A stretch of 64,000 bases of DNA from a virus (IMGVR_UViG_3300029288_000114:1-64000); one strand, 5' to 3'; shown: positions 5,458-47,168, counted from the stretch's first letter. A program made the numbers and translations. Notes: a model not told the origin generated them from the letters alone.

Positions 5458-8400
5458 TATGCGGGCATCCTTTGCAATGTTGCCATATCACTAATGTCGC
5501 GGCTGATCTGCCGCGACATCTCGCGCCCGACTACCATGTTCGGCACCATCATTGTGCCTACAATGGGCGCATTTACCTCAACAACCACTGGCTGCTGCGA
5601 TCTCGCTGTATGCAATTGCCCCAATCCCATTGCCGCCTTATTGCCCAGCCCCGCAGCCATAGCGCCTATTGGGATATTATTCATCTTACTAAGACCTAGC
5701 GATAAGCCCTGCACTGCATATTCGCCGATTTCAGCAAACACTTTTGATGGAGACATGATACCCCAGGCATTTCTTAGCACTGTCTCAATTGATTTCGCAT
5801 AACCCCATGCGTATTTCTTGAACGCGGGTAGCGATTCAGACATGCCGTTTTGAATGCCGTACGTAATTGCTAACCCTACCGCGTAGAAAGTGTTGCTGCT
5901 TTGTGCAATAGCAAGCATTGCGTCTGCCATGTTTTGCATTACTGCGGATGCGGCGGCGTTTGCTCCGCCACCAGCCCCGGATATTGCATTTATGACCGCA
6001 ACCATCAGGTTAGACATTTCCGTAACGGCACGAGCCGTATTGTTTCTTATACCATTTGCCAACCCGGAGACTATATCCTCCCCTAATTCAATAAATCTTT
6101 TCGCCGGAGATTGTGCCCCGACTGAATCGCGTGCGGCGCGCAGCGTTGCTTCCCCAACCCCGGTTGCCGCTTCTTCTGCGATCACGGAGTTTTCGGTCAC
6201 GCCAAGTCCTAACCCCTCGGATATGCTCCGCCCGATTAGATTGGCGGCTTTCCCCAGGTCTATCTTCTCAAACATTTTGGTAAATCTGCCTATTTCTTTG
6301 CTAATGTCCCGTCCGGTTTTGTCAATGATCTTTGGAACGCCAGCCCATCCGCGATCCCATGCCTTCTGGAAATTATCGGGGAATATGTTGTCAAAGAAAT
6401 CGTTTATGGGTGTCAACCAATTCGTTGTTTGTGCCTCGATTTCTTGTTCTACCGGAGCAAATCCGGTAGTTATAGACTCCTGTGTTGTTAGCCCAGCCGC
6501 AAGAATTGTGCCCTGTAATATTGGCAATCCGGTATTGACGCCAAGAGACATATCGTCCATAATGGATGTGCCGAACTCTTGCATCTGTCCGGCCGGGAGT
6601 AGATATTGCAACGCCTCGTTTAGCGCGTCTGTGCCGGTTTCCGCGCCGTCAGTAATGGCTCGCGGAAGGCTCGCGCCCACATCTGTCCAGCCCTGGACAA
6701 AAGATGTATTCATCATAGCCGTGTCTGGCAACATTGAATTAACCACGCCCTGAACAGATTGGCTTATCCCGGCCGTGTTGTTTGAGACGCCAGCAATTGC
6801 CGCATTAATAAGGGTTTGCGACGATGCGGCGATCTCCGGTTGTCCGTCAAATAGTTCCTCTCGCGCCTTGCTTATGAATTCGCGCCCCAACGCTCTCCCC
6901 TCTTCTCCAACGGAAGACAGGTCAACATCAGGGAATATGTGTTCTATTAATTTTCCAAGCTCGCTTTGTTCAAATGCAATTCTTACACCCTCGAACATGT
7001 CTAATATAGATTCGAGAATGTTTAATCCAACACCGGCAACAATCTTTTTTAGCATCTCCCAGTTGTTAGCCCATACCGCCTTAACTTCTCCCCATGTTGT
7101 GCCGAATAACTTGGAGATTACTTCTGCCATTCCGACAAAGATCATTCCTATTGTGCTGAAAATACCTTGCATAATTCCGCGAAGTATTGTAATGATTCCG
7201 CCACCGATGTCGCCAGCGAGAACCTGCTTTATCCCCGCTCCGATTTGTATAATACCAGCAATAAGCTGCCCGAATCCGAGGAATATGCCATTGATTACCG
7301 CAAGAATAACATGCAGTATCGTGAAGAATATCCCCTTGGTTGCATCACTCTCTCCGGCTGCAGTCTTGAATAAATCTATCGCTTTTTCTATTTCTCCATA
7401 AGAATCCACCAGCGACTTTTTGAATTCTAACAAATCTGGCTTGAATTCTGATTTTATTTCTTCGCCGAATTCTGTCATCTTCTTAATAAAATTGTCGAAC
7501 TTCTCGCGCGCCACTGGCATTACTTCAGCAATGGTATCTTTAAGCGTAGTGAAAGATGCCCCGATCAGGGCTGCGTTCTCGGTGAACGAGTCTTTCATAT
7601 TCTTTAGCGGGTCTTCAAAGATTTCCTTTAGGCGCTCCTTGATGCCCGCAATCTTTTCTTCTAGCAAGCTCGTCCCGGCGAGAGGCATTTGAATCATAGA
7701 ATCCATCATGTCTTCGATGGGAGATTCCCCTCCGCCAGTTGGGGTTTTCCCCTTTGCCGATTTGCTAGATGAATCCTGAATAGCTTTGGCTAACAAGCGG
7801 AATAGTTCCAGTTGCTCTTGAATTAGCTCTTTCTGCATTTCGAGCTGCCGCAACTGAATCTCGTTGGCGTCCAGAGACCTCTTGGTTGTCGTGACTTTTT
7901 TAATTTGCGCTTTAATGGCTGCTGGATCGCGGTTGAGCACTTGCAGTTTGAACAGCTCGCTCTTTTGCGACTTGTATGAGCGCGTAAGTTCTTCGTTGAG
8001 GCGTTTGGCTTTATTGAAAGCGAACTCGATAGACTGAGATAGGAATTCAAGGTCTATCGTGGACAAGCCCTTTGCCCACTCCGCGATAGAGTCAACGCCC
8101 CACTGGAACAAATTGTCCTTGACATCTTGATCTAGCAGGGCGCGTAAGTCTTCCTTGATTTGCGGGAAAGCGTTGTGGATCGGGTAATTCATCATTCCCT
8201 TAACCCACTCACCCATTGCCGCTTCGCCCCACTTGTCAATGTATGGCGCAACTTTTGGCGGAGAACCTGGAGAAAGCCAATTAGTCAGCACGCTTGAAAT
8301 AAAGTTCATCGCTGTAGAGATGAACATTCCGAATCCGTTCATTATGCCGATGGCGAATTGCGAACCAACGTTCGCTCCCCATGTTAGCGCATTAACCGCC

Positions 8401-38228: not shown

Positions 38229-41147
38229 ATGACCAAGAGAAAGAAAGCAGAATTATCATTTGAGTTACCAAGCATGGCAGACGATCCGTATAGTGATTTG
38301 GATCAGTATTTCCCGACTCAACTACAGCGTTTTCAGTATCTCGACAAATACTCCCGTTACCGCTACGATCTGGGACGCCGCGAGACGTGGAACGAGACAG
38401 TTGATCGAGCCGTTGATTATATGCGCTGGCTATCGAAAGGCAAGTTAAGCGAGCGCGACTACAAAGAAATCCATCACGCTATTCTCAACCTGCACGTTAT
38501 GCCGTCGATGCGCCTATTGGCGATGGCAGGCGATGCAGCGAAGCGGGACGAGAAAAGCATTATGAATTGTGCGTATGTAGCCATAGACAGCCTTGACGCT
38601 CTAGTTGAAATGCTCTCGCTGTCTATGTCTGGCGTGGGTATTGGGTTTAGCGTAGAAGAGCGTTACACATCGCAACTGCCGCGCATTAAGCGGCAATCCG
38701 GCACGTTCTCAGTGTTTATAATCCCTGACAGCACAGAGGGCTGGTGTACTGCGCTTAGAGCGGGATTAACCGAGTGGTACAATGGGCGCGACGTAGTGTT
38801 TGATTACTCGCAGATTCGTAAAGCCGGAGAGCCGTTGCGCACTAAAGGCGGACGATCTTCTGGTAGCGGCCCACTGAAAGAGCTGCTCGACTTTACGCGC
38901 GGCAAGATTGTGTCGCGCGGCGGTACGCAGCTTCGCCCTATTGACATCTATGACATCGCCACAAAGATTGGCGATTGCGTGATCCAGGGCGGGGTCAGGC
39001 GCGTCGCTACACTCTGTATGTTTGACTACGACGACGAGATGATGCTAAACGCCAAGTCCGGCGATTTCTGGAAACACTCGCCGTGGCGCTTCAACTCAAA
39101 CAACAGCGCGGTTGTAGAGAAAGAGCTTTCATTGGATGAGGTGCGCGACTTTATGCTACGCATGGACGCCAGCAAGAATGGTGAACCCGGTATTGTAAAC
39201 AGGCTGGCGATGAAGAACACAATGCCTGAGCGCCGCAACAAAGAACACGAGTTCGGAACCAATGCGTGTCAACCAGGATGGGCTACTGTATTAACGCCCG
39301 ATGGCATAAGAACAATTGACGACATTGATGTTGGAGATATTATTTGGTCTGGAGAAGGATGGACTGAGGTTGCGCGCAAATTGTCGTCTGGCAACAAATC
39401 TGTGTACGCATATAAATTTAGCAATGGTACATTTGTTGGCACAGACGATCATCACATCTTCTCTGGTGGAGAAGAAGTAGAAGCCGGGGAGGCCGAGTCC
39501 GCAGATGGATTGGCTGGTTTGTTTGCAAACGATATTGTGATTGATCCACAAGATGTTATGGACGGTCTCGTGCTTGGGGATGGCACTGTTCACAAGGCCA
39601 GTAACAATTTAGTGTATCTTATTATTGGCGAGAAAGATATGGATTATTTCAATAGCGAAATCTCGCATTTAATAAAGAGAGACAGAACCGCAGCGTTCAG
39701 ATTTGGATGGGAGATTGATACGACAATATCGGCAAGAGAATTGCCATATACATATTTGCGCAAGGTTCCAGACAGGTTTTTCTATGGTGACAAGAATAAA
39801 ATCGCCGGTTTTTTACGTGGGCTTTTTAGTGCAAATGGCAGTGTAGTTGACACAAAAGGCTATTACAGAATAGGGCTAAAGCAATCAAGCGAAACACTTG
39901 TAAGACAAGTTCAAATAATGCTTTCGTCGCTTGGTATACGGTCATACATAACAATAAACAAACCAAAATCGGTCGAATTTAGAAATGGGGTATATGCCAT
40001 AAAGCAATCATACGACATAAATATATCCACAGACAGACATAAATTCATGACAATTATCGGATTTGTACAAAAGTACAAACAAAGAGGAGCCGACGCAGCT
40101 CACGAATCAAGAAAACTAGTATATGGAACACTGCAAGAAATTGAGCCTCTTGGCGTTATGCCAGTATATGATCTTACCGTACTATGCAATGAACATTCGT
40201 ATTGGACGGGCGGTATCAAGGCCAGGAATTGTGGAGAAGTGATTCTTAAAAATGCGGAATTCTGCAATTTATCCAGTGTCGTGTGCCGCCCGGAAGACGA
40301 TGTTAATATGCTCGTTTACAAAGTGCGTGTCGCAACTATTATCGGTACGATTCAATCACTTGCGGAGAATTACGAGGGATTGCGCCCTGTATGGGGCGAC
40401 AACCAACGCGACGAACGGCTACTTGGCGTTGACCTTAATGGGCAAATGGACTGCCCGGAAGCGCGCAAACCAGAGGTGCAAGATTTCCTACGGCAGCACG
40501 CCATAGATATTAATGCGGAATATGCCGCAAAGATGGGTATCAACGCATCCGCATCTATTACAACCGTTAAGCCATCGGGGAACAGCGGGGTAATGCTGGA
40601 CATCTCTAGCGGTTTGCACCCGCGTTGGTCGCAGTATTATATTCGCAATGTACGTATCAACAAAGGATCGCCGCTGTATCGCGTGCTGAAAGACTCTGGC
40701 GTTAAACTCGTGCCGGAGAATGGGCAAGAGGAAGAAACAGGAACAACGTTTGTGGCTGGATTCCCAATGAAGTCTCCTGATGGCGCTGTTACTCGTCATG
40801 GCATGAACGCCCTTGAGCAACTAGAATACTGGAAGTCTGTCAAGTTACACTGGACTGAGTTAAACCCAAGCTGTACTATCTACTACAGCGAAGATGAACT
40901 TGACAGTGTGATCGAATGGGTGTATAGTAACCAGGATGTTATCGGCGGGTTATCGTTCTTGCCGCGCTTTGATATGAACTACGAGAACGCGCCGTACATC
41001 GAGATTGATGCCGAGACATACGAACAGATGTCGGCTGAGTTCCCGAAGATCAAGTGGGGCTTGCTGGCGGAATACGAGAAGTCCGATCTGTCCAGCTCTG
41101 GACAGGAAGTGGCGTGCTCTGCTGGCGTGTGCGATTTCAAACTTTAG
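38229..41147 (+). CDS. nrdJ: Class II (AdoCbl-dependent) ribonucleotide reductase with intein
   Basis: RRETW.ETV.R, MPSMR, NCAY, GVGIGFSV, GGVRR, TN[A|intein|C]GE, FCNL, TTVKPSG, C-terminal ACSAGVC. Confidence 0.95.
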   Translation: MTKRKKAELSFELPSMADDPYSDLDQYFPTQLQRFQYLDKYSRYRYDLGRRETWNETVDRAVDYMRWLSKGKLSERDYKEIHHAILNLHVMPSMRLLAMAGDAAKRDEKSIMNCAYVAIDSLDALVEMLSLSMSGVGIGFSVEERYTSQLPRIKRQSGTFSVFIIPDSTEGWCTALRAGLTEWYNGRDVVFDYSQIRKAGEPLRTKGGRSSGSGPLKELLDFTRGKIVSRGGTQLRPIDIYDIATKIGDCVIQGGVRRVATLCMFDYDDEMMLNAKSGDFWKHSPWRFNSNNSAVVEKELSLDEVRDFMLRMDASKNGEPGIVNRLAMKNTMPERRNKEHEFGTNACQPGWATVLTPDGIRTIDDIDVGDIIWSGEGWTEVARKLSSGNKSVYAYKFSNGTFVGTDDHHIFSGGEEVEAGEAESADGLAGLFANDIVIDPQDVMDGLVLGDGTVHKASNNLVYLIIGEKDMDYFNSEISHLIKRDRTAAFRFGWEIDTTISARELPYTYLRKVPDRFFYGDKNKIAGFLRGLFSANGSVVDTKGYYRIGLKQSSETLVRQVQIMLSSLGIRSYITINKPKSVEFRNGVYAIKQSYDINISTDRHKFMTIIGFVQKYKQRGADAAHESRKLVYGTLQEIEPLGVMPVYDLTVLCNEHSYWTGGIKARNCGEVILKNAEFCNLSSVVCRPEDDVNMLVYKVRVATIIGTIQSLAENYEGLRPVWGDNQRDERLLGVDLNGQMDCPEARKPEVQDFLRQHAIDINAEYAAKMGINASASITTVKPSGNSGVMLDISSGLHPRWSQYYIRNVRINKGSPLYRVLKDSGVKLVPENGQEEETGTTFVAGFPMKSPDGAVTRHGMNALEQLEYWKSVKLHWTELNPSCTIYYSEDELDSVIEWVYSNQDVIGGLSFLPRFDMNYENAPYIEIDAETYEQMSAEFPKIKWGLLAEYEKSDLSSSGQEVACSAGVCDFKL
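39267..40229 (+). mobile_element. Intein (321 aa) with LAGLIDADG endonuclease in nrdJ
   Basis: Starts CQPGWATVLTPDG, block B GTDDHHI, GLVLGDG and FLRGLFSANG, ends VYDLTV...KARN/C. Confidence 0.92.
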
Positions 41148-41376: not shown

Positions 41377-41420
41377 AGTACGATACCCACAAAGGTTCGC
41401 CAGCGCCAATATTAAGCTGG

Positions 41421-41458
41421 CAACAAAACAGCCCGGTTAATCGCCGGGCTGTTGTTAT
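41421..41458. terminator. Bidirectional terminator between convergent arms
   Basis: 10-bp stem AACAGCCCGG/CCGGGCTGTT with A-rich and T-rich flanks. Confidence 0.8.
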
Positions 41459-41466
41459 TGTGATAG

Positions 41467-42021
41467 TTAGTCTTTGCGCGAATATGCGAAATCCCTAAAC
41501 GCAGAATACACCCCGAACCTCTCTCGCATCTCGGCAAGTACATCATCTCCCGTGAGTTCGTAGATATTCATTACATGACGATTGTACTCGCTGTCGTATA
41601 GCTTCTTGCGCCGCTTGTTGATTTTCTTAACTTCGGCAAACACATCATCGCGCGAAATGCCATATTTCTTTTCCAGATATTTTGCCAGTTCCGGCTGCGA
41701 GAGCGCCTTGAATTGACAGATTGGGCATAACTCTTGCGGAATGTCGCCGTCTAGTTTGTCGCAGTATTCCAGTGCCTCGTCGTCGCTCATTGCGGCGGTG
41801 TCCGGTTTAGAGTAAGACGCTCGATCAATCCAGGCGCGTGCGAGTTCCGGTGTAACTTCGCCCTCGACAAATTCTTCTAGCAAAGTGTGTTCGTTCTCGC
41901 ACATCACAAAACCATAGTCGCGGCGAGAATTGCCGTCCCAAAATGTTTCGCTCTCGCCGCTGATCTCACAGATATAAGTTGTGCTAGAAGAGTTGGTAAC
42001 AAATCCGTTGCGCTTCTTCAT
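41467..42021 (-). CDS. NSSS-tag protein 4 (MKKRNGFVTNSSSTTY), with Cys/His zinc-site-like residues
   Basis: Shared N-terminal tag, CEISG, CENEH, CPIC. Confidence 0.8.
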   Translation of the reverse strand: MKKRNGFVTNSSSTTYICEISGESETFWDGNSRRDYGFVMCENEHTLLEEFVEGEVTPELARAWIDRASYSKPDTAAMSDDEALEYCDKLDGDIPQELCPICQFKALSQPELAKYLEKKYGISRDDVFAEVKKINKRRKKLYDSEYNRHVMNIYELTGDDVLAEMRERFGVYSAFRDFAYSRKD

Positions 42022-42446
42022 AAATAATCCTCTGTGAATGTAATATTCTCGCCGTCTGACATTGCCCTGAGCATTTCGGCGAGCGATTCGTCTGAATGTT
42101 CGATGTCAAGATAGTATAACGCAAAGCCGTCTTCGAGCATCTTAATTCTCTTGGCATATAAGTCTGCCGCGCCGTCATCGTCATCCATCTCGTAGGCAAG
42201 TGCGGCAAGCGTTGATTCATGCTTACCGCTATTCCACACTTTCCTCATAATAAAGGCGTCGTATTCGGATTTGGTACGCACCACATCGTCCGCTTTCGTT
42301 TCCAGAGTGTCGAGAAGCATCTTGTACACATACTTCAAGACCAGATGAGCAGCGACGACAGAATCATCCATGTCTGGCAGGCGCTTGATTGCTAACACAA
42401 ACGAACTACTGCTACTATTGGCAACAAACCCTTGTCTAATTTTCAT
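42018..42446 (-). CDS. NSSS-tag protein 3 (MKIRQGFVANSSSSSF)
   Basis: Shared N-terminal tag, coupled to the next gene. Confidence 0.8.
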   Translation of the reverse strand: MKIRQGFVANSSSSSFVLAIKRLPDMDDSVVAAHLVLKYVYKMLLDTLETKADDVVRTKSEYDAFIMRKVWNSGKHESTLAALAYEMDDDDGAADLYAKRIKMLEDGFALYYLDIEHSDESLAEMLRAMSDGENITFTEDYL

Positions 42447-42449
42447 AGA

Positions 42450-42797
42450 TCACCACGTCTCGTAGTTTTCCAATAGATCATCTGCTGACATAGAGGAATG
42501 CTGATCTTCGTTGCCAGCCCACACTTGATAATCGCCTCCGTGGATAGTGACGACTGTGCCATCTGGTTCTCTTAAATACTTGTAAACCAAACAATACTCA
42601 AAGTCGTATGCAAGCGTGCCCAGCACATCCAGCATATCTTCGGTAATAGCGAATACATCTTGCCCCTCGCACATATAGTTGCCAAACACAATGTAGTCAC
42701 CTTTTGACAAGTCGATCTCTTCTAGCTTGACGCGCTTGCCAATAACAACGAACGAGCTGCTAGAACTATTCGTCACAAAACCAACCCTGATCTTCAT
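42450..42797 (-). CDS. NSSS-tag protein 2 (MKIRVGFVTNSSSSSF)
   Basis: Shared N-terminal tag, ATGA overlap with the upstream gene. Confidence 0.8.
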   Translation of the reverse strand: MKIRVGFVTNSSSSSFVVIGKRVKLEEIDLSKGDYIVFGNYMCEGQDVFAITEDMLDVLGTLAYDFEYCLVYKYLREPDGTVVTIHGGDYQVWAGNEDQHSSMSADDLLENYETW

Positions 42798-43276
42798 TCG
42801 TTATCATTCCCCCCTTGAATATAAGAGTCTTTTGAAAACAGGAAGTCGCACAGCGTTTCGTAGCTGGCAAAGATTTCCGTGTTCTTGCCCTCGGCGGCGG
42901 ATGACTGATGGTCGATATACCCGTCCACCATTCCGTCTGGCACTGGATATTTGTTCGTTAAAACCCACTCAACATAATCGAATCCGGCGTATGCGCGCAA
43001 TGCTTTCTCTAGCGTTGGTCGCCAGGTCTCGCGGCGCGTATTATACCAGCAAGTATCTCCGCATCTCTCCGCTTCAAGAATTTGCAAGGCGGCAAAGTTT
43101 AGCTTGTCATAGAAGTCGGTGTATTTCTCGTTTTCCCATCCGAACTCAATTTCGCCGCTATCGCCGATTCGGACGATCTTTCCCAACCCAAATCCGGGCG
43201 TCATCATTCTGGTGTTGCACAATACGATAAAGCTACTACTGGAACTGTTAGTTACAAAGCCCTGTCGTGTTTTCAC
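42794..43276 (-). CDS. NSSS-tag protein 1 (MKTRQGFVTNSSSSSF)
   Basis: Shared N-terminal tag, GTGA overlap with the radical SAM stop, GYIDHQS motif. Confidence 0.8.
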   Translation of the reverse strand: MKTRQGFVTNSSSSSFIVLCNTRMMTPGFGLGKIVRIGDSGEIEFGWENEKYTDFYDKLNFAALQILEAERCGDTCWYNTRRETWRPTLEKALRAYAGFDYVEWVLTNKYPVPDGMVDGYIDHQSSAAEGKNTEIFASYETLCDFLFSKDSYIQGGNDNE

Positions 43277-45593
43277 CGCGTCTTCTCCCTACGATTACAC
43301 AGCACTACTTCTGGTTTCAACGGACATCCACCCATGCAGTTCTGCCGCACGGCGCATCCCGGACAGCGATTGCGCAACTGGTCGCGGAACGCCTCGAATT
43401 GCGGACTGCTCCACGCCTCTTCAATCGTATGATCGCGCAGGCTAACGCCGTATTTCAATTCCTGGTCGAAGCTACACGGCGTAGCGATCATATCCGGTGT
43501 AATGTACATACTGAACCGCGCACCCTCGCAGGTGTCGATGCTGTCCATGTTGATGTCTGAGGTATAGTTGATTATACCAGGAATAGAACAACTGTCAAAT
43601 CCAATCTTGAAGTCGCCATTCCAATTATCAATAATTTGGAAGAACTTGTCCAGCTTTGGATCGCCCGGCTGCAACACATTCGCTTGCTGTCCAAGCCCAA
43701 CCGGTTTGTGCAGCAAGAACACTACTGCGCTAATGCCATCAGGAAAGTTGTTGTTTAACAGGCGGCAATTCGCTTCATCAATTGAGTTGTTACCGAGAAC
43801 GTAGTGAATATTTGTAGTCACTCCAGCATCAACGAGCCTGCCAATTGCGGAGAGCGTGTATGGTGAGCGGTACCACGAAACAGCAGCGGCACCACACATA
43901 TCTTTGGTAGGGCTACTTCTTTATCGGTGAGTCCAAGGCCGCTTGTGGTATAGTTGGGGATAATGCCGTACTCGCGCGTCATTCTTAGGATGTCGCCGAA
44001 TTGCTCGTGCTTGTTTGGATCACCACGGCCGCCTAGCGCGCAATTGTGTGACAAAATACCGTTTGACGTAACAAATAGGTGCGCGTCGCTTTTAACCTCA
44101 ATATCAACCACGCGAGACATACCGGCGGGGGTGACAGATACGACCACATTATCCTTATACAGCCTTGAATTTTTGCTGTTAATATTATTTGCAACACAAT
44201 CCAAGAACCCGGAACTGTTCCAGTGGAATCTCGTCGCGGATTTTATAATATTGATGTCATGATTATTGTATATTCTAACCCTATATCTCGTGCTTCTATT
44301 GATCGATCTCCCGAAACTCTTGTCAAAAGAAACACCGCCACTTTCAGACGAAACAGACGGAATAATGCCAAACTTCACACTAAAAAGCATAGAAAGTCCA
44401 GATGCCAAATACTTACTTGAAGTGTTAAATACAACAGACGCTCCATTAACACTATCATACTTCAGATCCCCGTCACAGAAATATCCAGCCAGGAATTCAG
44501 TCACCATATCCTGAGAGAGGTCAAAGATAAAGTTTGGGAGTTGCTTCTTCTTATCTTTGCCGCGACAACCAAATGCAATATCAAATATGATTTTGTGTAA
44601 AATATTTGAACCAAATTCAAAAACGTATTTATTGCTTTTCTTGGTGATGTGATAGCCGAGATTCGGGAATACAGAATCAACACAATGTATTAAATCAAGA
44701 AACATAGCCTCTTTCGCAAGGCCCATAACGTAGCTTCTGCGCGACCCGTCTCCTACATAGTATCCGATCATTCGCATAAGCTCTGCTGACACGGGAATAA
44801 TTGATGGGACTGTGTACTGCGACCGCTCCACGCCCAAGGCCACAACCACCGAGTCAAGGTTTCCGTCGTACATTGACAATTTCACAGACCGCTTTCCGTC
44901 GATGCGGACATTGAACTTATATCCAAGCCCCGCATCAATTATCATCCTGGCTATATTAAGCTCTGTAATTCCATTAAATGCAGTCGGTGTAGCCATAACC
45001 ATTCTATCGCCACCGACAATTTCGCAAACCTGTTTTTCTACTCTCCGCCCGTCCTCTGTTAATACCGGAAAAGTGTGATCCGCAGTGGCTTTAATCTTTC
45101 TCCCGCCATCAATCGCAATCTCAAAAATGTCCTTAACAGATTCCGACTTAGCGACAACTGGAATATAACCAGCAAAACCGTCGTGAATTTTCTCGCCGAT
45201 TTTCACATCGGCAATCCTTATAACTCCACGATCCCCACTAAGTACAATCTCGTCTTCATGCAAGCATTGCATTACAACGCCTTGACTCTGGTGCATAATG
45301 CTTTCGTAGTCTTCAACGCTCATATTCGGCTCGTTGCGCGTCAGCCCACTTTGGTAGCACTGCACACCAGACGCCAAGCATAACCCGCTTTTGCCGTGAA
45401 CGCAATGGCCCATGATTCCTATATCGATGAGTGAGGGCATACTGCGCATAAACGGATCAACGCCCGTATCCACCGTGCCCTCAATCACGCCAGAGCGAAT
45501 ATACGCGCCATTCTCGCGGTTGAACCATTCGGCGAAGTTGTATTTCTTGTCTACGTACATATCTTGCTCGCTACCACGAATAATCTTAATCAC
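43273..45593 (-). CDS. Radical SAM/SPASM protein with intein (one gene, apparent 1-nt frameshift near 43908)
   Basis: Cx7Cx6C motif (CVHGKSGLCLASGVQCYQ), ALGGRGDP, PNYTTSG, AVSWY, GFDSC, SPASM CEGARFS.YI.PD....PCSF...CPGC.....CMGGCP. Confidence 0.9.
44043..45266 (-). mobile_element. Intein (408 aa) with LAGLIDADG endonuclease in the radical SAM gene
   Basis: Starts CLHEDEIV, ATADHTF, IGYYVGDG and FLAGYFCDG, ends VVDIEV...GILSHN/C. Looks AT-richer than its flanks. Confidence 0.92.
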
Positions 45594-46182
45594 TGCTTAC
45601 TCCTAGTTGCTCTTCAATCCATGCTCGCGTTTCTGGATGAAGAATGATCTTGTCCTTGTTGTCCAGATACCATTGCTTCGTATCTGGATCGTTGTTGTTA
45701 CCCTGCTGCTTACCATAGGCGCGCCCCGCACCAATCCAGTCCGCAAGCATCTCCCTGCGGTAGCGATCTGGCATAGGCACGGGTGTCTGGCATTGCCGTA
45801 ATGCGAATAACACAAAGTCTTGTGAGTTGTATTGAAAGCTGCCCCTAAACGCAACCCGCGCATAATCGCCAGCGTCGCGCCAGATTTCGTACACGCCATT
45901 TGCGCCGCGAATATGCCAGCCGTCTTCCTGGCAGCCCTGAAAGAGCCAAAACTGCCAGTGGTGAGCATTCCTCTTGTAGTGCATAGCAAACGCTCGCAAA
46001 ATTCTGTCGTCGTCGTAGCGCATGGTATTCCCATAGAATCTTTGCGCATACGGGATAAACTCTGACGGCAAGAACTTCGACCAGTCGTGTAGAATCCCCA
46101 ACAGCGGAACGCCTAGCCGCACGCACTCAACCAGCACAAACCACTTATGCCGCAATAGGGCTTTCAAATACTTCCAGTACAT
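45586..46182 (-). CDS. DUF5662-family HD-like protein
   Basis: HKWFV, LHDWSKF, H..RN.HHW..W, MP..Y..EMLADW.GAGRAY. Confidence 0.8.
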   Translation of the reverse strand: MYWKYLKALLRHKWFVLVECVRLGVPLLGILHDWSKFLPSEFIPYAQRFYGNTMRYDDDRILRAFAMHYKRNAHHWQFWLFQGCQEDGWHIRGANGVYEIWRDAGDYARVAFRGSFQYNSQDFVLFALRQCQTPVPMPDRYRREMLADWIGAGRAYGKQQGNNNDPDTKQWYLDNKDKIILHPETRAWIEEQLGVSSD

Positions 46183-46184
46183 AA

Positions 46185-47168
46185 TTACTCCTTAATCATT
46201 GCGTATGCTTTCTGGTAGTCGGTGTGAAGATCACAAGGAACTCCAAACGAGACGATTTGATCGTAGCTCCACTCCATATCGCGGAATACCCTGCCGTCGC
46301 CATCCCAATGACTAATGCGATCTGACACTTGCTCGTAAATCTCGCGGTCTGTTTCTGTTTCAGCCGAGAAGCTATCTAGTCCGTACTGCGCGAGAGACGG
46401 CCCGTCAGACCAGTCGTCGCGATTGCGTTGCATATAATGTGCCAAGCGCAGGTACTTGTTGGAATTAACGATTGTATCAAAGAGCGTATATTCATCTGTC
46501 TCGATTGGCAACCCGTACTTAGATAACAAAGCCACAAGCTCAAGGTCGGCTTTGCGCTTTCTGATTTCTTCTTGCTCTTTGCGTTCTTTCTCTGCCGCTT
46601 GCTGTCGTTCCTCGGCTTGCATCTTTCTCTCGAAATCGTTGATTTGCTGCTCCAGTTCGACGTATCGCTTCATCTCGACGTCATAGTTATCGCTAACGGG
46701 CAACCATCGCTCAATGTCGCCGCGATAACCGGCAACGTTCTTAATTGCGGTTTTTTCACGAGATCGCTTTGTCTTGTATTCGTGTGTCGTGTATGTTTGC
46801 GGGATACCAATCGCCGACATCACTGATTCGATACGCGCGCGTGCCTTTTCGTTATTAGCAATGGCGTCTATGTTGGATGCGTGCATTTTCTCTGCTTTGT
46901 CGCGCCATTCAGATACAGTCTTACGCGCGTTAGCAACAGCGACTTTCCACGAACTTCCGTAGCGGCTATCGTCGTAGTACATAACATTGCTGTGCCAGTG
47001 CCCGCTGAAAGAGATTTTCTTCACTTCGCTCATCACGCCGTTCTCGGTGTTGAGCTTGGCAGTTAGGGATTCAATCTTTTTCAGCAGAGCATCAACGGAT
47101 TGCTTGGCGATGTCTGCGTATCCTTCTGCTTCTGTGTTTGCATGTGACGATACGCCAGTGTACATCAT
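46185..47168 (-). CDS. Hypothetical coiled-coil protein
   Basis: 327 aa, coupled in the operon. Confidence 0.7.
   Translation of the reverse strand: MMYTGVSSHANTEAEGYADIAKQSVDALLKKIESLTAKLNTENGVMSEVKKISFSGHWHSNVMYYDDSRYGSSWKVAVANARKTVSEWRDKAEKMHASNIDAIANNEKARARIESVMSAIGIPQTYTTHEYKTKRSREKTAIKNVAGYRGDIERWLPVSDNYDVEMKRYVELEQQINDFERKMQAEERQQAAEKERKEQEEIRKRKADLELVALLSKYGLPIETDEYTLFDTIVNSNKYLRLAHYMQRNRDDWSDGPSLAQYGLDSFSAETETDREIYEQVSDRISHWDGDGRVFRDMEWSYDQIVSFGVPCDLHTDYQKAYAMIKE

What the first reader, a model, noticed from the sequence alone, without database searches (positions are those of the whole stretch)
41467..46182. Top candidate: radical SAM/SPASM maturase with four client proteins sharing an N-terminal MKxRxGFVxNSSSSSF tag
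Seen: a tightly coupled operon (HD-like DUF5662, radical SAM/SPASM, four ORFs, terminator). The four ORFs start MKTRQGFVTNSSSSSFIV, MKIRVGFVTNSSSSSFVV, MKIRQGFVANSSSSSFVL and MKKRNGFVTNSSSTTYIC, then diverge almost completely. The serines use mixed TCN and AGY codons, so the tag is selected as protein and is not a DNA repeat. Two ORFs share a late D(HQ/QH)SS motif. The enzyme has an unusual Cx7Cx6C cluster motif and a full SPASM domain. Known: SPASM enzymes modify peptides and proteins, for example anSME oxidising Ser/Cys to formylglycine, and RiPP maturases. Inference: a phage post-translational modification system in which a portable tag of about 16 aa is recognised and modified (Ser oxidation, cross-link, epimerisation or cofactor formation) to activate a variable set of folded effector proteins. 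I recall this motif in hypothetical proteins but know of no characterised function.
Basis: partly seen in the sequence, partly recalled or inferred. Interest (0 to 1): 0.9.

Follow-up and report, generated by a model that had tools for sequence, protein, structure and literature searches.

The report
Phage radical-SAM enzyme with serine-tagged clients
This phage encodes an iron-sulfur radical enzyme followed by four unrelated small acidic proteins that all begin with the same 16-18 residue serine-rich peptide; the enzyme and the peptide travel together in hundreds of large phages (including the laboratory coliphage RB43), so the peptide is probably the enzyme's docking and modification site in a protein-modification system that I could not find described in print.

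Summary
On the minus strand lie DUF5662, a radical-SAM/SPASM gene carrying a 408-residue intein, four tightly coupled ORFs that start MK.R.GFV[TA]NSSS.., and a hairpin. Serine codons are mixed. The "frameshift" in the enzyme gene is an error of this record. Contigs from three runs, two of them from independent studies, carry one extra base that restores a single frame.

The tag is not peculiar to this phage. All 36 fetched viral loci with a relative of the 160-aa client (plus two metagenome loci) hold 1-12 tagged ORFs. At least 68 of 79 enzyme-centred loci hold tagged ORFs on the same strand. All four near-complete genomes without a nearby enzyme encode it elsewhere. The bodies fall into 126 sequence clusters with no Pfam domain, and 95% are acidic.

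A co-fold of a related enzyme with a 40-residue tag scored 0.87, against 0.01 for the best control. The tag lies along the enzyme's N-terminal sheet and active-site barrel. The Thr-9 tag variant occurs only with the window's divergent enzyme clade, which has a full SPASM domain.

This scan has already reported the same system on other DNA, RB43 included. I found no paper describing it.

The parts
45586..46182 (-). DUF5662 protein (198 aa), translationally coupled to the enzyme gene; not a conserved partner of the system
   Evidence: PF18907 E 1.7e-34. No homologue found in 38 related loci.
43273..45593 (-). Radical-SAM/SPASM enzyme gene. It is a single gene once the base missing from this record behind 43907 is counted. 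Cluster motif C-x7-C-x6-C-YQ, GGE-like motif ALGGRGDP, full SPASM motif.
   Evidence: SPASM PF13186 30.3 bits, TIGR04085 30 bits. Colinear alignment with L030/L125/L129 enzymes. Extra base in 3 of 3 covering contigs. The model of the closest relative matches SuiB, SkfB, PqqE, CteB and anSME.
44043..45266 (-). 408-residue intein with a LAGLIDADG endonuclease domain, inserted in the SAM-binding GGE-like motif (..VVMQ|C...SHN|CALGGRGDP..)
   Evidence: PF14890 42.5 bits, PF14528 24.6 bits. Boundaries come from alignment with intein-free homologues. Present in contigs of three runs, with no intein-less joint seen.
42794..43276 (-). Client ORF4 (160 aa, net charge -8). Tag MKTRQGFVTNSSSSSF. Family with invariant FGW, IDHQS and SYIQGGNDNE motifs and no known fold.
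   Evidence: 109 homologues. Alignment A1. AF2 pLDDT 88 with residues 1-11 below 50. No PDB or BFVD fold match.
42450..42797 (-). Client ORF3 (115 aa, net charge -12). Tag MKIRVGFVTNSSSSSF.
   Evidence: Only residues 1-27 align to the ORF4 family.
42018..42446 (-). Client ORF2 (142 aa, net charge -11). Tag MKIRQGFVANSSSSSF. Its body is a singleton.
41467..42021 (-). Client ORF1 (184 aa, net charge -9). Tag MKKRNGFVTNSSSTTY. Cys-rich body (C18, CENEH, CPIC). It belongs to the largest client cluster (35 members in 27 loci).
41427..41453 (.). 11-bp-stem hairpin between the converging operons; a likely bidirectional terminator
43571..43598 (-). Perfect sigma-70 consensus (TTGACA, 16 nt, TG, TATAAT) inside the enzyme gene, about 300 nt upstream of the first client; a possible separate client promoter
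   Evidence: A consensus match only; function not tested.

Best explanation
One radical-SAM/SPASM enzyme serves many client proteins that share an N-terminal handle.

Proposed mechanism:
1. Residues 1-9 of each client (MK.R.GFV[ST]) add as a strand to the three-stranded N-terminal sheet of the enzyme.
2. Residues about 9-16 (the N-S-S core and the following small residues) are thereby fed across the top of the SAM/[4Fe-4S] barrel, against the SPASM domain.
3. There the 5'-deoxyadenosyl radical abstracts a hydrogen and a covalent change is made at or next to Asn10-Ser11-Ser12.
4. The body, small and acidic and drawn from well over a hundred unrelated families, then carries the modified N-terminus.

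In this phage the enzyme must first splice out an intein. Four clients are made from the same operon.

Shown here: the linkage, the diversity of the bodies, the conservation pattern, and a modelled interface. Inferred: binding in the cell, any covalent change, and its chemistry. Candidate chemistries, in my order of preference, are oxidation of a Ser C-beta as in anSME, a cross-link within the tag, epimerisation, and backbone cleavage.

My odds: about 0.8 that the enzyme recognises the tag, and about 0.55 that it covalently modifies it.
For: 1. Linkage from the tag side.
- All 36 fetched viral loci with an ORF4 relative, plus two metagenome loci, carry 1-12 tagged ORFs.
- 24 of the 38 have the enzyme family within 10 kb.
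- Of 10 others searched record-wide, 5 encode it elsewhere. That includes all 4 records that are at least 90% complete. The 5 without it are 11-29% complete in four cases and 79% in one.

2. Linkage from the enzyme side.
- At least 68 of 79 enzyme-centred loci have tagged ORFs within 10 kb, always on the enzyme's strand and mostly downstream.
- Further tags turned up in several of the remaining loci.
- RB43-like cultured phages keep two tagged genes about 20 kb downstream.

3. All 6 'cellular' MAG contigs with the ORF4 family also carry the enzyme plus tag arrays.

4. The bodies are unrelated.
- 323 bodies fall into 126 BLAST clusters, 94 of them singletons.
- hhalign between the 12 largest clusters gives under 3% probability for all but three pairs.
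- 0 of 125 representatives have a Pfam domain.
- Only the tag aligns between the window's clients.

5. Co-fold: ipSAE 0.87 (runs 0.88/0.86/0.87) against 0.01 for the best of 3 controls. The runs agree in at least 75% of contacts and partner pLDDT is 60-64.
- The tool's calibration: 58 of 80 solved complexes and 2 of 110 mismatched pairs reach the mark. It holds only roughly here, because my own alignments and ligands were used.
- Tag residues 1-19 all touch the enzyme.
- Residues 2-4 pair with enzyme residues 25-29.
- Residues 6-9 touch the GGE-like motif (109-113) and barrel strands 137-141 and 160-163.
- The SPASM Cys region (270-316) is also in the interface.
- Many of these enzyme positions are family-invariant.

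6. Conservation. An HMM search not tied to my regex finds N10 and S11 invariant and S12 nearly so. Positions 13-15 tolerate A, G, C, T, Q, E and N.

7. Co-variation. Thr at tag position 9 occurs only with the deep enzyme branch L030/L125/L129, and the window's enzyme aligns with that branch. Other variants (D6-Y7, L7) are uniform within a genome and confined to single enzyme clades.

8. Monomer model of ORF4: residues 1-11 have pLDDT below 50, while F16-V18 is the first strand of the fold.

9. The enzyme model's nearest solved structures are peptide- or protein-modifying SPASM/twitch enzymes: SuiB (E 7.6e-13, TM 0.55-0.58), SkfB, PqqE, CteB and anSME.
Against: - No biochemical datum exists. 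Linkage and a model cannot show catalysis on the tag.
- The co-fold may lean on solved maturase-peptide complexes such as SuiB-SuiA and CteB.
- The tag variants map to few independent branches, so the co-variation is anecdotal.
- Tag residues 16-18 are a strand of the client's own fold in the ORF4 model. The enzyme would therefore have to act before or during folding, or touch only the free arm.
- In RB43-like phages the clients lie 20 kb from the enzyme.
- A later checker of an earlier scan report noted that a sister form of the tag mostly lacks a nearby enzyme. I did not test that.
- One 79%-complete record with a tag has no enzyme.
Confidence: 0.58

Rival explanations
1. Docking handle only. 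The tag recruits clients to the enzyme, but the radical chemistry is done elsewhere: on the client body, on a third molecule that the client presents, or the clients regulate or chaperone the enzyme.
For: The linkage and the co-fold show association, not a reaction site. The bodies are too diverse to share one function, which would fit adaptor roles.
Against: In the model the tag runs through the active-site face of the barrel next to the SAM-binding motif. The strictest conservation is at N10-S11-S12 rather than in the strand that pairs with the enzyme. The bodies share no other motif that could be a common target.
Confidence: 0.15
2. The tag is a sorting or stability signal, and its linkage with the enzyme is indirect. 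Examples would be a capsid-targeting sequence like that of the T4 internal proteins (recalled from memory, not tested), an export signal, or an N-terminal degron.
For: Tandem, hypervariable, small acidic phage proteins with a common N-terminus resemble, by recollection, the T4 internal-protein arrangement. In RB43-like phages the clients are not adjacent to the enzyme.
Against: - It does not explain the near-obligate genome-level co-occurrence with one enzyme family.
- It does not explain the co-fold with controls at 0.01.
- A bacterial chromosomal cassette holds the same enzyme clade plus one tagged protein beside a dynamin-like GTPase, with no capsid in sight.
Confidence: 0.1
3. The 'tag' is the conserved first strand and active-site loop of one very divergent protein superfamily. 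The enzyme is merely co-inherited.
For: F16-V18 is a strand of the ORF4 fold. Many bodies have a late acidic-His or Gly-rich C-terminal motif by eye. ORF3 and ORF4 share a D(HQ/QH)SS-like string.
Against: Profile-profile comparisons find no homology beyond residue about 27. Body lengths range from 19 to 309 aa. Residues 1-11 are disordered in the monomer model. The tag is far better conserved than any body, across enzymes that are only 30% identical.
Confidence: 0.07

Closest known systems
SuiB/StrB with SuiA (streptide), and CteB, SkfB, PqqE: radical-SAM SPASM/twitch RiPP maturases acting on leader-bearing precursors
   Same: - Best structural matches of the enzyme model: SuiB E 7.6e-13, SkfB 3.2e-10, PqqE 2.7e-09, CteB 5.6e-09.
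- The only significant radical-SAM hit by sequence profile among solved structures is SkfB, E 0.0047.
- One enzyme recognises a conserved N-terminal sequence shared by several substrates encoded next to it.
   Different: - The substrates are whole proteins, 42-309 aa in the arrays with a median of 136 aa, from more than 100 unrelated families, not short peptides.
- No PqqD-like RRE was detected. The enzyme model's own N-terminal three-stranded sheet is the predicted docking surface.
- No protease or exporter is present in the operon.
- The system is phage-encoded.
- No curated family cut-off is reached.
Anaerobic sulfatase-maturating enzymes (anSME/AtsB) with Ser- or Cys-type sulfatases
   Same: A SPASM radical-SAM enzyme that modifies a Ser/Cys in a short motif near the N-terminus of a folded protein. 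anSME is among the structural matches (4k39, E 4.5e-08).
   Different: TIGR03942 scores 17.4 bits against a cut-off of 349. The tag lacks the (C/S)-x-(P/A)-x-R motif. No client is a sulfatase. There are many unrelated clients instead of one enzyme family.
FxSxx-COOH peptides with FxsB-type radical-SAM/SPASM enzymes in conflict systems (Kaur, Burroughs, Iyer, Aravind 2020, PMC7159879)
   Same: A SPASM radical-SAM gene sits beside variable proteins that share one short conserved piece, in conflict-type gene neighbourhoods.
   Different: There the conserved piece is C-terminal and is released by a peptidase. The motif is different, and the systems are bacterial with vWA-MoxR/AP-ATPase partners. 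None of these features is seen here.
SPASM radical-SAM enzyme installing thioether cross-links in whole proteins of methanogens (PMC13692751; title and abstract only)
   Same: A precedent that SPASM enzymes can act on proteins rather than short RiPP peptides.
   Different: That chemistry is based on Cys. The tag here has no conserved Cys. The paper was not read in full.

Membership tests
Radical SAM superfamily | Three-Cys motif binding the SAM-cleaving [4Fe-4S] cluster after barrel strand 1 | tested here: met
   The window has C-x7-C-x6-C-YQ, aligned to the canonical C-x3-C-x2-C-YK of relatives L014 and L006. The spacing is non-canonical, so which Cys are ligands is inferred.
Radical SAM superfamily | Pfam PF04055 at gathering score | tested here: inconclusive
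   No hit for the window's pieces, which are split by the intein. The closest relative L030 scores 24.2 bits against 29.5. Its model matches radical-SAM barrels at E down to 7.6e-13.
Radical SAM superfamily | GGE-like SAM-binding motif at barrel strand 2 | tested here: met
   ALGGRGDP aligns with QIAFG.. of the family. It is the intein insertion site.
SPASM subfamily | C-terminal auxiliary-cluster domain with CxxCx5CxxxC; PF13186/TIGR04085 at cut-off | tested here: met
   PF13186 scores 30.3 bits against 21.5 and TIGR04085 30 against 27. The motif CPGCAVRQNCMGGC plus a downstream Cys is present. The main phage branch has fewer Cys and looks twitch-like.
RiPP pathway | Short precursor peptide with a leader and a core, from which a small product is released | tested here: not met
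   In the arrays the clients are 42-309 aa; the median over all tagged proteins is 136 aa. ORF4 is a confidently folded domain. There is no peptidase or exporter in the operon.
RiPP pathway | RiPP recognition element (PqqD-like) in the enzyme or a partner | tested here: not met
   No PqqD/RRE family hit at E up to 0.01. The N-terminal domain is modelled as a bare three-stranded sheet.
anSME/AtsB sulfatase maturase | TIGR03942 equivalog score; (C/S)xPxR substrate motif; sulfatase client | tested here: not met
   17.4 bits against 349. The motif is absent from the tag. No sulfatase domain occurs in 125 client representatives.
Intein (Hint domain with homing endonuclease) | Cys1, C-terminal His-Asn, +1 Cys; PF14890 at cut-off; endonuclease domain | tested here: met
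   C...SHN|C boundaries. PF14890 scores 42.5 against 35.8 and PF14528 24.6 against 22.5.

The most novel reading that the evidence does not exclude
The enzyme converts Ser11/Ser12 (or Asn10) of the tag into a reactive or cross-linked residue: an aldehyde, a dehydro residue or a macrocycle. This residue then acts as a built-in warhead or cofactor, giving phages a universal 'activation handle' that can be bolted onto any small acidic host-takeover or anti-defence protein. The same enzyme clade with a single tagged protein beside a dynamin-like GTPase in a bacterial chromosome would then be the cellular counterpart or origin, making this a shared currency of phage-host conflict.
Probability: 0.15. 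Interest if true: 0.9.

Novelty: new variant of a known kind. Interest (0 to 1): 0.8.

Why it matters
If the enzyme does modify the tag, this is a post-translational modification system of unknown chemistry. It would act on whole proteins rather than peptides, and one enzyme would serve over a hundred unrelated protein families.

The system is very common in large phages. More than 593 tag-pattern hits were found in IMG/VR, 4710 enzyme clusters score E <= 1e-20, and 173 cultured T4-like phage genomes carry the enzyme.

It would give a function-linked handle on a large block of phage 'dark matter': small acidic proteins, which in RB43 lie among unannotated genes. A short portable tag with a dedicated enzyme could also be a useful protein-engineering tool.

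It is directly testable in coliphage RB43 and its Klebsiella, Enterobacter and Cronobacter relatives.

Tried and rejected
- DNA-level search of the operon against cultured phages: no match. tblastn of ORF4 against cultured phages: no match, so that client family is known only from metagenomes.
- Profile of the ORF4 family against PDB sequences: nothing.
- Foldseek against PDB: best E 1.9. VIA-align wide: best Z 2.6. BFVD: one uncharacterised homologue only. No known fold can be named for ORF4.
- The ESM Atlas gave a structural lead to a Tad2-like (PF11195) cluster, TM 0.60/0.40. The other fold searches did not corroborate it, so I did not adopt it.
- Pfam and NCBIfam on the four clients: only sub-threshold noise.
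- Literature: the string NSSSSSF occurs in no paper. Searches on radical SAM with RB43, phage, SPASM, leader peptide, jumbo phage or serine-rich found no description. The FxSxx systems of PMC7159879 are a different thing.
- Glycyl-radical motif, SGNH-like catalytic blocks, and pyruvoyl or Ntn self-processing at Asn|Ser were considered from the sequence. I dropped them as untestable or ill-fitting: the motif spacing or order does not match, and Gly6 is not invariant.
- A programmed -1 frameshift at the enzyme gene was considered and rejected, because reads show a missing base in the record.
- No RNA holder was listed among the sequencing runs.
- The search for related loci with the broad enzyme alignment failed for lack of a conserved stretch.
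- Rfam on the interrupted enzyme gene of L003: no intron family.

Full report
**What is there.**
- On the minus strand of the window, one search lists a 198-aa ORF at 45586-46182. It is DUF5662 (PF18907, E 1.7e-34).
- Next come two overlapping ORFs that together encode a radical-SAM/SPASM enzyme (43818-45593 and 43273-43899).
- Then come four ORFs of 160, 115, 142 and 184 aa, joined by 4-nt overlaps or a 3-nt gap.
- The operon ends at an 11-bp-stem hairpin at 41427-41453.
- Their serine codons mix TCN and AGY, so selection is on the peptide.
- The 97-kb record, which is 88% complete, has exactly these four tag sites.

**The enzyme gene.**
- It carries a 408-residue intein with a LAGLIDADG domain (PF14890 42.5 bits, PF14528 24.6 bits).
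- The intein is inserted as ..VVMQ|C...SHN|CALGGRGDP.., that is, in the SAM-binding GGE-like motif.
- The exteins are colinear with intein-free relatives (L030, L125, L129).
- Like those relatives, they have a C-x7-C-x6(8)-C-YQ cluster motif and a full CxxCx5CxxxC SPASM motif. The main phage branch instead has a canonical or loop-expanded C-x3-C-x2-C-YK and fewer C-terminal Cys.
- The apparent frameshift near 43900 is not real. Logan contigs from three runs all have an extra base behind 43907. One run is the probable source sample. The other two are a groundwater and a landfill metagenome from other studies.
- That base restores ..EVALTKDMCGAAAVSW.., which matches the LTK/TTK of homologues.
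- The intein is present in the covering contigs of three runs, and no intein-less joint was seen.

**The tag is widespread and linked to this enzyme family.**
- A search with the ORF4 family (109 homologues; alignment A1) hit more than 593 tag or motif patterns in IMG/VR and returned 36 loci.
- Every one of these loci, plus two metagenome loci, holds 1-12 ORFs that begin with the tag.
- 24 of the 38 loci have a homologue of the enzyme within 10 kb.
- For ten loci without one I searched the whole record. Five encode the enzyme elsewhere, including all four records that are at least 90% complete. The five without it are fragments of 11-29% completeness, apart from one at 79%.
- In the reverse direction, 79 new loci were fetched with the enzyme alone. 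They have tagged ORFs within 10 kb in at least 68 cases, always on the enzyme's strand and mostly downstream. Several of the rest proved to have tags on closer inspection.
- 173 cultured T4-like phage genomes carry the enzyme, among them RB43, RB16, KP27, Matisse, Miller and GAP161.
- RB43 has two tagged genes, CCK73964.1 and CCK73969.1, about 20 kb downstream on the same strand.
- Among 185,579 species genomes only six contigs hold the ORF4 family. All are MAG contigs, and all have the enzyme plus tag arrays.
- The window's enzyme clade is very large. 4710 clusters score E <= 1e-20.
- In one Firmicutes MAG that clade sits in an apparently chromosomal cassette: dynamin-like GTPase, enzyme, a 107-aa protein starting VKIRSSFVTNSSSSCF, two unknown proteins, and DUF4291.

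**Tag versus body.**
- In 329 unique tagged proteins, K2, R4, F7, V8, S9 and F16 are 93-100% conserved.
- An HMM search not tied to my regex shows N10 and S11 invariant and S12 nearly so. Positions 13-15 accept A, G, C, T, Q, E and N. The core is therefore N-S-S, not a generic serine run.
- After residue 20 the proteins fall into 126 BLAST clusters, 94 of them singletons.
- Profile-profile comparison of the 12 largest clusters gives under 3% probability for all but three pairs.
- None of 125 representatives has a Pfam domain, and only phrog_7397 recurs.
- 95% of bodies are net negative, with a median charge of -11. The window's four are -10 to -14.
- ORF1 belongs to the largest cluster, which is Cys-rich and looks like a zinc ribbon by eye. 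ORF4 belongs to the second largest. ORF3 has one relative. ORF2 is a singleton.
- Only the first 22-27 residues of ORF3 and ORF2 align to the ORF4 family. The D(HQ/QH)SS resemblance is therefore not evidence of common descent.
- The ORF4 model (pLDDT 88) has residues 1-11 below pLDDT 50 and its first strand at F16-V18. It matches no solved or viral predicted fold.

**Does the enzyme hold the tag?**
- I co-folded the closest intact relative of the window's enzyme (L030, with alignment A2), SAM, three [4Fe-4S] clusters, and a 40-residue tag segment (alignment A4, which includes the window's four tags).
- The score was 0.87 (runs 0.88/0.86/0.87) against 0.01 for the best of three controls. The runs agree in at least 75% of contacts, and partner pLDDT is 60-64.
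- By the tool's calibration, 58 of 80 solved complexes and 2 of 110 mismatched pairs reach the mark. That calibration holds only roughly here, because my own alignments and ligands were used.
- Tag residues 1-19 all touch the enzyme. Residues 2-4 pair with enzyme residues 25-29, which lie at or next to the edge strand of a three-stranded N-terminal sheet.
- Residues 6-9 touch the GGE-like motif and barrel strands 3 and 4. The SPASM Cys region is also in the interface.
- This supports binding but does not show it. It may also owe something to solved maturase-peptide complexes.
- The enzyme model's nearest solved structures are SuiB, SkfB, PqqE, CteB, TigE, DesII and anSME.

**Co-variation.**
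- Within a genome all tags share the same variant.
- Thr at position 9 occurs only with the deep enzyme branch L030/L125/L129. The window's enzyme aligns with that branch and three of its four tags have Thr9. The bacterial L130 tag also has Thr9.
- D6-Y7 and L7 variants each map to one enzyme clade.
- The independent events are few, so this is consistent with direct recognition but weak.

**Interpretation.**
- The best reading is a one-enzyme, many-clients protein-modification system. The N-terminal strand docks, and the N-S-S core is presented to the radical site.
- I put recognition at about 0.8 and covalent modification of the tag at about 0.55. The chemistry is open.
- The rivals are lower: a docking handle only, a sorting or degron signal, and one shared fold. 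The report sections above give the reasons.

**Comparison with known systems.**
- The system works like a RiPP maturase with a shared leader, or like anSME with its sulfatases.
- It fails the membership tests of both. The clients are folded proteins, no RRE is detected, no peptidase is present, the CxPxR motif is absent, and the TIGR03942 score is far below its cut-off.

**Novelty.**
- I found no description in print.
- This scan has already reported the same enzyme-tag pair on other DNA several times, including RB43. My linkage, model and conservation results agree with those notes.
- New here:
  - the window belongs to the full-SPASM, Thr-9 clade;
  - its enzyme carries an intein in the GGE-like motif;
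  - its 'frameshift' is a record error;
  - the strictly conserved core is N10-S11-S12.

Noticed in passing
window 43571-43598 (minus strand): A 12-of-12 sigma-70 consensus with an extended -10 (TTGACA, 16 nt, TG, TATAAT) lies inside the SPASM-coding part of the enzyme gene, about 300 nt upstream of the first client ORF. It might drive the clients separately from the enzyme.
   Followed up: no
window 38229-41147 (plus strand): A 972-aa ORF that reads like a ribonucleotide reductase interrupted by a second intein-like insertion (by eye). With the enzyme's intein, that would be two in this phage.
   Followed up: no
L130 7892-14263 (Firmicutes MAG contig, 159 kb): Bacterial cassette: a dynamin-like GTPase (688 aa), an enzyme of the window's clade, a 107-aa protein starting VKIRSSFVTNSSSSCF, proteins of 334 and 412 aa without Pfam hits, and DUF4291. 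It is flanked by ordinary metabolic genes, so it looks like a chromosomal, defence-type context.
   Followed up: partly
L003 6168-8479: The enzyme gene of another phage is interrupted inside the Fe-S cluster motif (..CAF|C....VHN|CYKGN..) by an intein. That intein is itself split into two ORFs by an HNH-endonuclease gene at 6693-7490, so it may be a naturally split intein. The enzyme genes of L011 and L033 are also in two ORFs. No Rfam intron was found.
   Followed up: partly
window 41400-46200: Near-identical DNA occurs in landfill and groundwater metagenomes from several studies. The phage is therefore recurrent in such sites.
   Followed up: partly
window 42794-43276: The ESM Atlas model of ORF4 resembles a cluster of 261-aa viral proteins carrying a Tad2-like (anti-Thoeris) domain, TM 0.60 by query and 0.40 by target. 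PDB and BFVD searches do not corroborate it.
   Followed up: partly
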